This document shows positions 6,830 through 42,093 of a stretch of 42,810 bases of DNA, one piece after another. The stretch is from a virus, in the UHGV virus genome UHGV-0330108. One strand, given 5' to 3'. The translations under genes were made by a program, and so were the position numbers. The notes below the pieces were generated by a model. The model made no database searches. It saw only the letters and a program-made list of their open reading frames with translations, and was not told where the DNA came from. Each line of letters starts with the position of its first letter. The stretch's first letter is position 1.

Positions 6830-6852
6830 TGAATAGTACCCTATTATATTGG
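6830..6852 (-). promoter_or_regulatory. promoter/operator cassette TGAATAGTACCCTATTATATTGG (minus-strand TATAAT plus palindrome GAATAG-N4-CTATTA)
   Basis: Perfect TATAAT on the minus strand overlapping a 16-bp palindrome; the identical 23-mer recurs at 16043-16065. Confidence 0.45.
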
Positions 6853-16042: not shown

Positions 16043-16065
16043 TGAATAGTACCCTATTATATTGG
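16043..16065 (-). promoter_or_regulatory. promoter/operator cassette TGAATAGTACCCTATTATATTGG, identical to 6830-6852
   Basis: Exact 23-mer repeat with minus-strand TATAAT and the palindrome, directly upstream of the island's first gene. Confidence 0.45.
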
Positions 16066-30949: not shown

Positions 30950-30978
30950 ACTATAATAGTTAACTATTCAGGTGTCAA
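30950..30978 (-). promoter_or_regulatory. sigma70-like promoter (minus: TTGACA-N17-TATAGT) with perfect palindrome GAATAGTTAACTATTA in the spacer
   Basis: Consensus -35, near-consensus -10, 17-bp spacer; ~45 nt upstream of the ATG at 30896. Confidence 0.6.
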
Positions 30979-33485: not shown

Positions 33486-33515
33486 ACTATAATAGCGAAC
33501 TATTCATGTTGTCAA
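33486..33515 (-). promoter_or_regulatory. sigma70-like promoter (minus: TTGACA-N18-TATAGT) with palindrome GAATAGTTCGCTATTA
   Basis: Same architecture as 27372-27400 and 30950-30978; divergent from the XRE regulator gene. Confidence 0.55.
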
Positions 33516-33520
33516 TGGGC

Positions 33521-33549
33521 TTTTCTAAAATAATTAATATGGTACTATT
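33521..33549 (+). promoter_or_regulatory. putative promoter of the XRE regulator gene (-10 TACTAT within AATATGGTACTATTCA, weak -35)
   Basis: -10-like hexamer inside an operator-like half-palindrome, ~30 nt upstream of TAAGGAG. Confidence 0.35.
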
Positions 33550-33579
33550 CACATACCAACTGACTAAGGAGTAATTGAC

Positions 33580-36983: not shown

Positions 36984-37012
36984 TTGCACATCCCAACATA
37001 ATAGGATACTAT
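36984..37012 (+). promoter_or_regulatory. putative promoter (TTGCAC-N17-TACTAT) with palindrome TAATAGGATACTATTC over the -10
   Basis: Same hexamers, spacing and operator placement as 38498-38526; ~35 nt upstream of the 37046 gene; coordinates approximate. Confidence 0.45.
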
Positions 37013-37045
37013 TCACTTATCGAAACAAGACAGAGGAGTGGGGGT

Positions 37046-38497: not shown

Positions 38498-38526
38498 TTG
38501 CACACTGATATAGAATAGGCTACTAT
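38498..38526 (+). promoter_or_regulatory. putative promoter (TTGCAC-N17-TACTAT) with palindrome GAATAGGCTACTATTC over the -10
   Basis: Same architecture as 36984-37012; ~30 nt upstream of GGGAGGAGAG and the ATG at 38558. Confidence 0.5.
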
Positions 38527-38557
38527 TCATTTACACAAATGGGAGGAGAGACAGAAG

Positions 38558-40262: not shown

Positions 40263-40453
40263 TGGTACAGAGATACGAAGTGCGAGGAACTGAATTAGGT
40301 GGTGACGCATTCTACGAAGATTGGGTTGAGGTGGTTCGCCAAGAAGATTACGCGGAGCTGGAGCGAAAACTGCGTAACTTCGCCGACCAAGTATTGTACG
40401 CACCTTGCTCGAAAGTTACCGAAGAAATGGCGATGGAGATTCTCGGCCTATGA
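40262..40453 (+). CDS. hypothetical protein, MVQRY paralog B (63 aa)
   Basis: ORF track frame 40217-40453; ATG at 40262 overlaps the upstream stop (TGATG). Confidence 0.5.
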   Translation: MVQRYEVRGTELGGDAFYEDWVEVVRQEDYAELERKLRNFADQVLYAPCSKVTEEMAMEILGL

Positions 40454-40743
40454 GCCTCGCAACTGACATCCTGAAACGAAGCGGTCTTGCGCCGCTGTCA
40501 CCGAGAGCGAACACCCAGATATACAAGCGTCGCCGTAACGCGCTGTACCCAGAGATTCAGGCCAGATGCAAAGCGGTCCGCGCCTGTGGATTCCAGAACG
40601 GGAAGGCCGTGAATCTCGGAGAGTTCAAGACAAAGGAACGCGCCGCTATCGCTAATCGGTTATTTAATTACTGGAAATCGCTGGGCTACGATGATATCCC
40701 GACGAAACCACAGAGACGACAATATATCTGGCGTCATAAATAA
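40450..40743 (+). CDS. hypothetical basic protein (97 aa)
   Basis: ORF track frame 40405-40743; ATG at 40450 overlaps the upstream stop. Confidence 0.5.
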   Translation: MSLATDILKRSGLAPLSPRANTQIYKRRRNALYPEIQARCKAVRACGFQNGKAVNLGEFKTKERAAIANRLFNYWKSLGYDDIPTKPQRRQYIWRHK

Positions 40744-40773
40744 ACCGTTATTAGGATAATTCCTACCCGTGGT

Positions 40774-40813
40774 ATCCTCCAGTTACTGCATACTTAATAC
40801 GCACCTGGAGGAT
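40774..40813 (+). promoter_or_regulatory. inverted repeat ATCCTCCAG-N22-CTGGAGGAT predicted to sequester the holin RBS
   Basis: The downstream arm contains the GGAGG 7 nt upstream of the holin TTG start; the upstream arm contains the complementary CCTCC. Confidence 0.4.
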
Positions 40814-40818
40814 TCATC

Positions 40819-41127
40819 TTGGATAAATTTACTGAAACAGTTACGGGGTGGCTTCTCGCTGCCGCACTAGCCGGAGGGGTAATCGGACTACGACAACATA
40901 AGTCCGTTATTTCTGGCCCTATCGATGGCTTCTGCTTTATCGCAACCGGCTTCACTTGCGCCGTATTTGGCGCACCCCTCGCGGCTCAATGGTTCGGCAT
41001 TACCGGGGAACGCGAGATAGCTGGCCTCGGATTTATCATCGCTGTCCTCTGGATGCCCATCTATTCTCGCCTTTCTGGCATCGTCGCCGGAGAATACATC
41101 GCACGTCGAGGAGGACCGCATGACTGA
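40819..41127 (+). CDS. putative holin (three predicted TM segments)
   Basis: TTG start with GGAGGA 7 nt upstream; three hydrophobic helices; sits upstream of the endolysin. Confidence 0.55.
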   Translation: MDKFTETVTGWLLAAALAGGVIGLRQHKSVISGPIDGFCFIATGFTCAVFGAPLAAQWFGITGEREIAGLGFIIAVLWMPIYSRLSGIVAGEYIARRGGPHD

Positions 41128-41392
41128 GCTATTCTGGTTTGTCGTAATGCTGGCAATGGGCGCTTCGTCCCTGTTCAACGTGTATAATGAACGTGTGGGC
41201 GACGGATTATTTGGCCGTGTGCTCTATATCCTGACCGCTATTGTCTGCGCCGCAGGATGTATCCACCTGTTACAGGGCAGCATGTCACCTACGCTGCCTG
41301 AGACATTAATAACATTAGTTGCGCTGCGTCAGATTCGTCAGGCGTGGTTGTCGTACGGAGGACATAAGCGTGTCTCGAAACATTTCAGATAA
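41120..41392 (+). CDS. second lysis-cassette membrane protein (holin/antiholin-like, two TM segments)
   Basis: ATG overlaps the holin stop; hydrophobic helices LFWFVVMLAMGASSLF and VLYILTAIVCAAGCIHLL. Confidence 0.45.
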   Translation: MTELFWFVVMLAMGASSLFNVYNERVGDGLFGRVLYILTAIVCAAGCIHLLQGSMSPTLPETLITLVALRQIRQAWLSYGGHKRVSKHFR

Positions 41393-41855
41393 TGGATTGC
41401 ATTTTACCGCCGCGTTCGAGGGATTCCGCGGAACTGCGTACCGCGCGACGCCGAACGAGAAGTATCTGACCATCGGCTACGGAAGCTATGGTCCGCACGT
41501 TAAGACGGGCCAGACCATCACCCCGGGGCAGGGCCTCCTGTTACTGAATCGCGATATGGCTAAAGCCGTAGCTGCGGTTGACGCAGCAGCTCACCATTCA
41601 CTGACACAGGCACAGTTCGACGCCATGTGTGACCTTGTATACAACGCGGGGGCTGGTGTGATTGCCGCTACTACCGGTACGGGCAAGGCGCTGCGTTCTG
41701 GTGATATCGCGACGCTGCGGGCTAAGCTGACGCTGTTCATCAACCAGAACGGCAAACCGTTACTCGGCCTGCGTCGCCGCACGGCTGGACGGCTGGCGCT
41801 GTTCGATGGTAAACCGTGGCAGGAGGCAGAGGTTATTGGGAGGGCTGTTAAGTGA
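41370..41855 (+). CDS. endolysin (phage lysozyme, GH24-like)
   Basis: ORF track frame 41319-41855; GTG at 41370 with GGAGGA 7 nt upstream; motifs ISDNGLHFTAAFEGFRGTAY...TIGYG and C-terminal GLRRRTAGRLALF. Confidence 0.85.
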   Translation: MSRNISDNGLHFTAAFEGFRGTAYRATPNEKYLTIGYGSYGPHVKTGQTITPGQGLLLLNRDMAKAVAAVDAAAHHSLTQAQFDAMCDLVYNAGAGVIAATTGTGKALRSGDIATLRAKLTLFINQNGKPLLGLRRRTAGRLALFDGKPWQEAEVIGRAVK

Positions 41856-41944
41856 CAGAGTTTGACTTCATTCTGTTGTCTATAGGCGCTGGTGCGGTAG
41901 TTGGCGTGATTTGGGGTATGATTGGCGGGAGTAGTAAAGGTTGA
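41852..41944 (+). CDS. small membrane peptide (30 aa) coupled to the endolysin
   Basis: Not in the ORF track; GTG overlaps the endolysin stop; GGGAGGG 7 nt upstream; hydrophobic. Confidence 0.3.
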   Translation: MTEFDFILLSIGAGAVVGVIWGMIGGSSKG

Positions 41945-42010
41945 CACCTAAGACTAATCCGACGATACTTAAATCACCTCCTGCTCCATCCCTCTGCTCT
42001 CCAGTTTTAT

Positions 42011-42042
42011 CCCGGCCCTGACCCAGCCGGGATTTTTTTTTT
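42011..42042 (+). terminator. rho-independent terminator after the lysis cassette
   Basis: CCCGGC-CCTGACCCA-GCCGGG followed by a T10 run. Confidence 0.7.
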
Positions 42043-42064: not shown

Positions 42065-42093
42065 TTGACTATTACCTACGACCCTACTATATT
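42065..42093 (+). promoter_or_regulatory. putative sigma70-like promoter (TTGACT-N17-TATATT)
   Basis: Good hexamers and spacing ~35 nt upstream of the 42127 gene. Confidence 0.5.

What the first reader, a model, noticed from the sequence alone, without database searches (positions are those of the whole stretch)
40774..40821. Holin translation start embedded in a 9-bp inverted repeat, with a TTG start codon
The GGAGG upstream of the holin TTG start lies in the 3' arm (CTGGAGGAT) of a perfect inverted repeat whose 5' arm (ATCCTCCAG) is 22 nt upstream. Pairing would occlude the RBS. Together with the weak TTG start, this suggests holin synthesis is deliberately throttled to set lysis timing.
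Basis: seen in the sequence. Interest (0 to 1): 0.55.

Follow-up and report, generated by a model that had tools for sequence, protein, structure and literature searches.

The report
Hairpin masking the holin ribosome-binding site
The first lysis gene of this Kagunavirus-type coliphage starts with a weak TTG codon and has its ribosome-binding site paired into a conserved RNA hairpin, probably so that messages read in from upstream genes stay silent while a promoter-like element built into the hairpin's first arm would give translatable ones; this is a known style of phage lysis control seen in a new phage group.

Summary
ATCCTCCAG (40774-40782) and CTGGAGGAT (40805-40813) are a perfect 9-bp inverted repeat. 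The 3' arm holds GGAGG, 7 nt before TTG (40819), the only possible start of a 102-aa holin-family gene.

A repeat like this is not rare: 4 observed against 5.1 expected in shuffles. Its position and conservation are what stand out:
- It is the most conserved stretch of the locus in 76 Kagunavirus sequences.
- Its ribosome-site opening energy (13.8 kcal/mol) is the highest of 57 SD-bearing starts I called in the window.
- Jerseyvirus, Dhillonvirus, a KW1E-like phage and a fourth group of Jerseyvirus-related holin loci keep a hairpin at the same place through compensatory changes, always with the SD in the 3' arm. In three of them it is a canonical terminator.

An extended -10-like element, TGnTAnnnT (40770-40778), sits at the base of the 5' arm in four groups. 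KW1E has CGT instead of TGn but a full TTGACC-17-TACTAT promoter there. The predicted start (~40785) lies just past the 5' arm.

Best reading (confidence ~0.5): control like T4 gene e. Read-through transcripts are translationally silent, and terminated in sister genera. Transcripts from the embedded promoter lack the 5' arm. TTG lowers output further. No transcription-start data exist.

The parts
40450..40743 (+). Upstream gene (97 aa from ATG 40450; the longest ORF starts at TTG 40405). Same strand, function unknown, with an AP2-like motif seen by eye. Transcription through it would enter the hairpin.
   Evidence: (phrog_9632); homologue upstream of the Jerseyvirus holin, 33% identity, E 5e-18
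40754..40763 (.). Palindrome GGATAATTCC at the 5' edge of the conserved lysis-module leader. Role unknown.
   Evidence: Conserved as GGATAA(A/T)TCC in Kagunavirus, Jerseyvirus and the L071 group, at variable distance from the hairpin; small hairpin in the MFE fold
40770..40778 (+). Extended -10-like promoter element TGGTATCCT (TGnTAnnnT). Its 3' five bases are the start of the 5' arm. Inferred promoter.
   Evidence: TG, T-12, A-11 and T-7 are invariant in 76 Kagunavirus sequences while 'n' (40772) splits 41 G / 35 C. G-14, T-12, A-11 and T-7 are invariant across the five groups; T-15 is present in four, and KW1E has C. The KW1E-like phage has TTGACC-17-TACTAT with its -10 at the same position. 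Not called by the -35/-10 scan in the window.
40774..40782 (+). 5' arm of the hairpin, ATCCTCCAG (anti-SD).
   Evidence: one variable column in 76 sequences (40781 A>G, gives a G-U pair)
40783..40804 (+). 22-nt loop, nearly invariant in the genus. It would be the 5' end of the leader if transcription starts at about 40785 (A).
   Evidence: L025 and L029 variants extend the stem into the loop
40805..40813 (+). 3' arm of the hairpin, CTGGAGGAT, containing the Shine-Dalgarno GGAGG (40807-40811).
   Evidence: one variable column (40806 T>C in 1 of 76)
40819..41127 (+). First holin-family gene (102 aa, three hydrophobic segments), TTG start at 40819-40821.
   Evidence: phrog_2359 holin, E 3.9e-29; orthologue note: 3 TMDs
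41120..41392 (+). Second holin-family gene (90 aa, ATG), overlapping the stop of the first.
   Evidence: phrog_2508 holin, E 6e-34
41370..41855 (+). Endolysin (GTG start, SD GGAGGA inside the previous gene).
   Evidence: (PF00959, E 2.3e-26)
42009..42042 (+). Strong terminator closing the lysis cassette (ATCCCGGC-9 nt-GCCGGGAT + T10).
   Evidence: Read; weak terminator-like Rfam hits 41985-42040; terminator annotated at the equivalent place in phage Schulenburg

Best explanation
The element is a compact regulatory junction at the head of the lysis cassette. It works like the control of T4 lysozyme gene e.

Shown:
- An RNA carrying both arms folds into a hairpin that pairs the holin SD (GGAGG) with an anti-SD 31 nt upstream.
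- This structure, the SD-in-3'-arm arrangement and the TTG start are conserved.

Inferred:
- Transcripts that read in from the upstream same-strand genes carry the whole hairpin, so they are poor templates for the first lysis protein. In the sister genera Jerseyvirus, Dhillonvirus and KW1E the same hairpin carries a U-tract and would also terminate them.
- A sigma-70 extended -10 promoter (TGGTATCCT, 40770-40778) overlaps the base of the 5' arm and starts transcription at about 40785, just past that arm.
- These transcripts cannot form the hairpin, have a 34-nt leader with a more accessible SD, and are the productive lysis mRNA.

The junction would therefore insulate the lysis-protein dose from upstream transcription. 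The dose would be set by a weak promoter plus a strong SD with a weak TTG codon.
For: Structure:
- MFE -19.6 kcal/mol, z = -2.9.
- Opening energy 13.8 kcal/mol, rank 1 of 57 SD-bearing starts in my rough gene map of the window.
- It falls to 9.3 kcal/mol when the 5' end is placed at 40779-40790.

Selection:
- 40774-40833 is the conservation peak of the locus.
- In 76 sequences the arms show one wobble-compatible change and one single-pair loss, while the loop has 8 variable columns.
- L025 and L029 variants lengthen the stem.

Cross-genus:
- Five groups keep a hairpin at the same distance from the start codon, with the SD-like GGAG/GGGA in the 3' arm.
- There are at least 2 Watson-Crick pair types at 10 stem columns when anchored on the -10 hexamer.
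- Full-context opening energies are 11.5-22 kcal/mol, against 2.2-9.3 from the predicted start.

Promoter:
- Invariant columns of the cross-group alignment are exactly G-14, T-12, A-11, T-7 (and C-5), with -13 variable even within genera.
- In KW1E the scan tool independently finds TTGACC-17-TACTAT ending one base before the hairpin. There a -35 replaces the TG.
- The base 7 nt after the hexamer is a purine in most representatives (A in Kagunavirus, G in Jerseyvirus, L071, Dhillonvirus L043 and KW1E; T in L073 and L091), and it lies at the apical end of the 5' arm in every group.
- In Dhillonvirus, Jerseyvirus and KW1E the hairpin is a canonical terminator 6-10 nt before the start codon, so their lysis genes need a start site inside it or read-through.

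Context:
- No + strand terminator is predicted between about 38.3 kb and the holin, and promoter-like sites lie upstream.

Precedent:
- T4 e, soc, 49 and I-TevI. Long transcripts sequester the SD, and late promoters lie in the DNA for the 5' strand (PMC3014915).
Against: - No transcription-start data exist for any of these phages.
- TATCCT matches only 4 of 6 consensus positions, the -35 is poor, and the -35/-10 scan finds nothing here.
- TGNTANNNT is not enriched in the window's intergenic DNA: 10 observed against 7.9 expected.
- The conserved TG can also pair weakly with bases between the 3' arm and the start codon in MFE folds. This is an alternative reason for its conservation.
- T-7 and the rest of the hexamer's 3' half are also constrained by pairing with the SD.
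- In the window the truncated leader is still fairly closed (9.3 kcal/mol against a median of 5.9), through an unconserved downstream pairing.
- A constitutive extended -10 promoter does not by itself explain late timing.
Confidence: 0.5

Rival explanations
1. Constant translational throttle. All holin mRNA comes from upstream promoters and always carries the hairpin. SD occlusion plus the TTG codon simply keep holin synthesis low and so set the lysis clock.
For: - The hairpin, the SD occlusion and TTG are conserved.
- No canonical promoter is called in the 75-nt gap.
- The upstream genes are on the same strand with no terminator between them and the holin.
- The other two lysis genes also have rather closed start regions, 9.4 and 10.4 kcal/mol.
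Against: - In sister genera the homologous hairpin is an 8-13 bp terminator with opening energies of 12.9-22.3 kcal/mol. That is hard to reconcile with it being part of every productive lysis mRNA.
- The LSPA1-type variant has a 14-bp stem (-23 kcal/mol) and is still a viable phage.
- This model does not explain conservation of G-14, T-12 and A-11 (and T-15 in four of five groups) outside the stem across groups, or the full promoter abutting the hairpin in KW1E.
Confidence: 0.27
2. Mainly a transcriptional element. The hairpin is a weak terminator or attenuator, or a 3'-end stabiliser, for the upstream operon, inherited from the canonical terminator seen in related genera. The overlap with the SD is a by-product of a compact genome.
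For: - Hairpins at the same position in Dhillonvirus, Jerseyvirus and KW1E meet terminator criteria.
- The tail in Kagunavirus, UUCAUCUU, is moderately U-rich.
Against: - The window's hairpin has a 22-nt loop and no U-tract, and it is not called as a terminator.
- The L071 group also lacks a U-tract, yet it keeps the hairpin and the SD-in-3'-arm layout.
- The SD sits in the 3' arm in all five groups, which is unlikely to be incidental.
Confidence: 0.12
3. DNA-level operator. The inverted repeat is a binding site for a dimeric phage or host regulator of the lysis promoter.
For: - It is a perfect inverted repeat next to a promoter-like element.
- The phage clearly uses palindromic motifs elsewhere (AATAG-N4-CTATT in a 7-copy motif).
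Against: - The arms differ in sequence between groups but stay complementary.
- Arm spacing varies from about 6 to 22 nt. That is the signature of a nucleic-acid hairpin, not of a protein half-site pair.
- The half-sites are 31 bp apart centre to centre in the window.
Confidence: 0.04
4. Chance repeat with no function. The conservation reflects a recently exchanged mosaic boundary.
For: - 9-bp inverted repeats are as common as expected by chance in the window, 4 against 5.1.
- LSPA1 shows that the module recombines as a block.
Against: - Compensatory maintenance of a hairpin over the SD in five divergent groups.
- It is a conservation peak relative to both flanking genes.
- It is the top-ranked occlusion among the genes of the window.
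Confidence: 0.03

Closest known systems
Phage T4 gene e (lysozyme), also soc, 49 and I-TevI: SD sequestered on early or middle read-through transcripts, with a late promoter inside the DNA encoding the 5' strand of the helix (McPheeters et al. 1986, as reviewed in PMC3014915)
   Same: - A lysis gene is the target.
- The SD is paired in a local helix on long transcripts.
- A promoter-type element sits where the 5' strand is encoded, so its transcripts would lack that strand.
- The arrangement is conserved among relatives.
   Different: - No sequence homology.
- The promoter here would be a sigma-70 extended -10 (TGnTAnnnT), not a gp55-dependent TATAAATA late promoter.
- The target is the first holin-family gene, not the endolysin.
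- In sister genera the same hairpin doubles as an intrinsic terminator.
- The promoter and transcript ends are inferred here, whereas in T4 they were mapped.
Lambda S gene sdi stem-loop and dual-start motif (S107/S105). Recalled from established literature; not retrieved.
   Same: An RNA stem-loop at the translation-initiation region of a holin gene tunes lysis-protein output.
   Different: - Lambda's structure partitions ribosomes between two in-frame starts (Met1/Met3) to set the antiholin:holin ratio.
- Here there is a single TTG start with no second start for 78 codons.
- The holin/antiholin pair is encoded by two separate genes.
Intrinsic terminators immediately upstream of the holin in Jerseyvirus, Dhillonvirus and KW1E-like phages (this analysis)
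   Same: - Same position relative to the start codon.
- Same SD-in-3'-arm layout.
- Same -10-like hexamer at the base of the 5' arm.
- The basal CTCC/GGAG pairs are shared with the Guernseyvirinae groups (Jerseyvirus, L071).
   Different: - Those have stems of 8-13 bp, loops of 6-7 nt and T5-T8 tails.
- The window's hairpin has 9 bp, a 22-nt loop and no U-tract.
Lambdoid late control pR'-tR' before S (from memory)
   Same: The lysis genes are the first genes after a promoter-proximal terminator.
   Different: - No Q-like antiterminator was identified.
- The predicted start lies inside the hairpin rather than upstream of it.
- Kagunavirus lacks the U-tract.

Membership tests
T4 gene e-type gating (works-like comparison, not homology) | SD and/or start codon paired in a helix on transcripts that enter from upstream | tested here: met
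   In silico only: MFE hairpin with z = -2.9; opening energy 13.8 kcal/mol, top of 57 starts
T4 gene e-type gating (works-like comparison, not homology) | A promoter lies in the DNA encoding the 5' strand, so its transcripts lack that strand | tested here: inconclusive
   TGGTATCCT at 40770-40778 follows the conservation pattern of an extended -10 across groups. A full promoter is called at the same place in KW1E. But there is no scan hit in the window, no motif enrichment and no TSS data.
T4 gene e-type gating (works-like comparison, not homology) | Upstream transcription actually reads into the gene before or independently of the internal promoter | not testable with these tools
   Indirect evidence only: same-strand genes and no predicted + strand terminator from about 38.3 kb to the holin
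T4 gene e-type gating (works-like comparison, not homology) | T4 late promoter TATAAATA / gp55-dependent transcription | tested here: not met
   No TATAAATA in 40744-40818. This is an analogue, not a member of the T4 system.
Lambda S-type dual-start/sdi control | Two in-frame start codons a few codons apart, giving antiholin and holin | tested here: not met
   Single TTG; N-terminus MDKFTETV; next in-frame start-capable codon is Met79
Rho-independent terminator | G+C-rich stem with a short loop (3-8 nt) | tested here: not met
   9-bp stem but a 22-nt loop; not reported by the scan. Met in Dhillonvirus, Jerseyvirus and KW1E.
Rho-independent terminator | U-tract directly after the stem | tested here: not met
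   The tail is TCATCTTGG. T5-T8 in Dhillonvirus, Jerseyvirus and KW1E.
Sigma-70 extended -10 promoter | TG at -15/-14 one base upstream of a TAnnnT hexamer | tested here: met
   TGGTATCCT at 40770-40778; the pattern is conserved
Sigma-70 extended -10 promoter | Directs initiation about 7 nt downstream | not testable with these tools
   Needs TSS mapping or in vitro transcription
Holin (PHROG 2359) | Profile match and small multi-TMD membrane protein next to an endolysin | tested here: met
   phrog_2359, E 3.9e-29; no Pfam hit; 3 TMDs noted for the orthologue; endolysin PF00959 two genes downstream
Holin (PHROG 2359) | Acts as the hole-former rather than the antiholin of the pair | not testable with these tools
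   Annotators disagree (class I / class II / 'antiholin/holin')

The most novel reading that the evidence does not exclude
The junction is a bifunctional module conserved across several siphophage genera (Kagunavirus, Jerseyvirus, Dhillonvirus, KW1E-like). One hairpin serves as terminator and/or anti-SD for incoming transcripts, and also houses in its 5' arm the promoter for the lysis genes. This makes the lysis clock independent of upstream transcription.

In Kagunavirus the 22-nt loop is almost invariant, more conserved than the neighbouring coding DNA. It might additionally be a sequence-specific site for a factor that opens the hairpin or times the promoter.
Probability: 0.35. Interest if true: 0.55.

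Novelty: new member of a known kind. Interest (0 to 1): 0.4.

Why it matters
Lysis timing is a major fitness trait of phages, and Kagunavirus and Jerseyvirus phages are widely proposed for therapy.
- A defined 50-nt junction that decides which transcripts can make the first lysis protein would explain how these phages avoid premature lysis without a known late-gene regulator.
- It would give a handle for engineering latent period and burst size: arm mutations, TTG>ATG, promoter mutations.
- It would be a second, independently evolved example of the T4 gene e logic, here using host sigma-70.
- For annotation, it confirms the TTG start, which some records miss: LSPA1 lacks the gene call altogether.

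Tried and rejected
- **Bare-repeat significance.** Rejected: 4 such repeats against 5.1 expected.
- **Genome-wide enrichment of TGNTANNNT in intergenic DNA.** None: 10 against 7.9, so the promoter case rests on conservation pattern only.
- **Alternative promoters inside the loop or upstream** (CATACT at 40789, GATAAT at 40755). Inspected by eye, with no -35 or TG support; the scan finds none.
- **The phage's own 7-copy promoter/operator-like motif.** Absent from the holin leader.
- **Rfam.** No family at the hairpin.
- **A downstream alternative pairing of the SD** (GGAGG with CUUCU about 40 nt into the gene), predicted for the truncated leader. It is not conserved in L029 or L025, so I give it no weight.
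- **Link to the upstream protein.** Homologous in Jerseyvirus but not in Dhillonvirus. An HslV-like gene is inserted between it and the holin in several relatives. It is therefore not an obligatory partner.
- **More distant holin relatives.** Pectobacterium phage Wc4 (Ounavirinae) and Pseudomonas phage Amjad_SA do not share the architecture.
- **Literature.** No promoter, TSS or hairpin description for Kagunavirus, Jerseyvirus or Dhillonvirus. The one Kagunavirus RNA-seq paper only places the lysozyme among 'middle' genes and holds no coverage tables.
- **Metagenome scan with the wide alignment.** Failed. The narrower one added only Kagunavirus and Dhillonvirus sequences.

Full report
**What is there.** The window is a Kagunavirus-type siphophage of E. 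coli (Guernseyvirinae). The lysis region matches 129 phage records at about 85-90% identity. The finding sits in the 75-nt gap between a small same-strand gene (ending at 40743) and the first gene of the lysis cassette.
- ATCCTCCAG (40774-40782) and CTGGAGGAT (40805-40813) are perfectly complementary, with a 22-nt loop.
- GGAGG (40807-40811) lies 7 nt before TTG (40819).
- TTG is the only possible start of the 102-aa ORF: in-frame TAA at 40795, next Met at codon 79.
- The product matches PHROG 2359 'holin'.
- It is followed by a second holin-family gene (ATG 41120), an endolysin (GTG 41370, PF00959) and a strong terminator at 42009-42042.
- The MDK N-terminus aligns with ATG- and GTG-started homologues in other genera, so the TTG start is sound.

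**Is it more than chance?**
- As a repeat, no. The window has 4 perfect 9-bp inverted repeats with loops up to 30 nt, against 5.1 +/- 3.1 in shuffles.
- As a structure at this place, yes. The region folds to -19.6 kcal/mol (z = -2.9; 2 of 200 shuffles).
- Opening -14..+3 costs 13.8 kcal/mol, the highest of 57 SD-bearing starts in my own rough ORF-based gene map of the window (median 5.9 across all 73 starts scored).
- Across 40 IMG/VR relatives, 40774-40833 is the conservation peak of the locus: about 0.99 majority identity against 0.65-0.9 in the flanking genes.
- In 76 Kagunavirus-type sequences TTG is invariant. The 5' arm has one variable column (A40781G, giving a G-U pair) and the 3' arm has one (T40806C, a single sequence). 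Most variation falls in the loop or upstream.
- Two divergent variants lengthen the stem: L025 to 11 bp and the LSPA1-type L029 to 14 bp, -23 kcal/mol.

**Relatives in other genera.** Holin homologues at 21-47% identity carry a hairpin at the same place. These are Jerseyvirus, a group of Jerseyvirus-related holin loci (L071-L075), Dhillonvirus (including a divergent L091 type) and a KW1E-like phage.
- The arm sequences differ. Anchored on the conserved hexamer, 10 stem columns show two or more Watson-Crick pair types. The basal CTCC/GGAG pairs are the most conserved because they are the SD: -5 C:G is invariant and -7 T:A holds wherever that column is paired.
- In every group the SD-like purine run is in the 3' arm.
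- In Dhillonvirus (12 bp, loop 6, T-run), Jerseyvirus (13 bp, loop 6, T-run) and KW1E (8 bp, loop 7, T8) the scan tool calls the hairpin a terminator.
- In Kagunavirus and the L071 group there is no U-tract and no terminator call.
- Start codons differ: TTG in Kagunavirus, GTG in Jerseyvirus, ATG in the others.

**A promoter in the 5' arm?** The cross-group alignment has few invariant columns upstream of the arm. They are G(-14), T(-12), A(-11) and T(-7), with T(-15) in four of five groups. Position -13 varies even within genera: 41 G / 35 C in Kagunavirus.
- That is the information pattern of an extended -10 promoter, TGnTAnnnT. In the window it is TGGTATCCT, 40770-40778.
- KW1E lacks the TG. 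There the scan tool independently reports a full promoter, TTGACC-17-TACTAT, whose -10 ends one base before the hairpin.
- The base 7 nt after the hexamer is a purine in most representatives (T in L073 and L091) and lies at the apical end of the 5' arm in every group. In the window it is A40785.
- Leaders from that point are 25-34 nt long and open at 2.2-9.3 kcal/mol, against 11.5-22 kcal/mol for the full context.
- In the three terminator-bearing groups a lysis mRNA containing the whole hairpin would be both terminated and nearly untranslatable. This argues for initiation inside it.

**Mechanism proposed.**
- Shown: the hairpin, the SD occlusion in silico, the conservation and the covariation.
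- Inferred: transcripts entering from the upstream genes carry both arms and are silent for the first lysis protein. No + strand terminator is predicted between about 38.3 kb and the holin, and promoter-like sites lie at 39.8-39.97 kb.
- Inferred: the embedded promoter yields transcripts without the 5' arm, and the TTG codon lowers their yield further.
- This is the logic documented for T4 e, soc, 49 and I-TevI, where sequestration lowers lysozyme synthesis about 100-fold on long transcripts (PMC3014915).
- It is an analogue, not a relative: there is no TATAAATA late promoter, the target gene differs, and the hairpin doubles as a terminator in sister genera.

**Weak points.**
- No TSS data exist.
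- TATCCT is a 4-of-6 hexamer with a poor -35, and it is not called by the standard scan.
- The motif is not enriched in intergenic DNA.
- The TG can also join a weak outer helix in MFE folds.
- The truncated leader in the window is still moderately closed.
A mainly transcriptional role gets about 0.12.

**Verdict.**
- Observation: confirmed.
- Interpretation: partly supported.
- Novelty: a new member of a known kind of control. I found no description of it for these phages.
- Interest: moderate. It is testable with simple TSS mapping and compensatory mutations.

Noticed in passing
window 6830-6849(+), 16043-16062(+), 30951-30970(-), 33487-33506(-), 33532-33551(-), 36996-37015(-), 38510-38529(-): A 20-nt motif, TGAATAGTAnCCTATTATnT, occurs 7 times against 0.03 expected. 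It contains the palindrome AATAG-N4-CTATT laid over a TATTAT -10-like hexamer, and it sits ahead of gene blocks on both strands. It matches the consensus published as PHIRE 'phage promoters' for Kagunavirus fBC-Eco01, although these phages encode no RNA polymerase. It looks like a promoter plus a shared operator. There is no copy at the holin.
   Followed up: partly
window 42009-42042, with 41941-41969 and 42065-42093: A strong terminator (ATCCCGGC-9 nt-GCCGGGAT + T10) closes the lysis cassette. It is flanked by two good sigma-70-like promoters: TTGACA-17-GATACT just before it and TTGACT-17-TATATT just after. The first would fire straight into the terminator.
   Followed up: no
window 41852-41944 (+): A 30-aa hydrophobic ORF (MTEFDFILLSIGAGAVVGVIWGMIGGSSKG) overlaps the endolysin stop (GTGA). 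It has no Pfam or PHROG hit. It could be a small lysis accessory membrane peptide or could be spurious.
   Followed up: no
L042 (Salmonella phage LSPA1) 980-1200; L029: LSPA1 is a mosaic. It has a Jerseyvirus-type terminator hairpin, a GTG start and a 32-codon holin N-terminal stub, followed from about CTATTAGGAT by a Kagunavirus-type leader, hairpin (stem extended to 14 bp) and TTG holin. The TTG holin gene is not annotated in the RefSeq record.
   Followed up: partly
window 40754-40763; same motif in L046, L061-L075: The palindrome GGATAA(T/A)TCC is conserved at the 5' edge of the lysis-module leader in Kagunavirus, Jerseyvirus and the L071 group, at 9-34 nt from the -10-like hexamer. It marks the point where homology resumes after variable upstream genes. 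Its role is unknown (regulator site, or a recombination boundary).
   Followed up: no
window 40450-40743 (+): The upstream 97-aa protein (phrog_9632, function unknown) has an AP2-like 'GKAVNLGEFKTKERAAIA' segment by eye. It is homologous to the protein upstream of the Jerseyvirus holin (33% identity). It is a possible DNA-binding regulator placed like lambda Q, but an HslV-like gene is inserted between it and the holin in some relatives.
   Followed up: partly
window 40819, 41120, 41370: All three lysis genes have strong GGAGG-type SDs. Two use non-ATG starts (TTG holin I, GTG endolysin). All overlap or abut the previous gene, and their start regions are among the more structured in the genome (9.4-13.8 kcal/mol).
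   Followed up: partly
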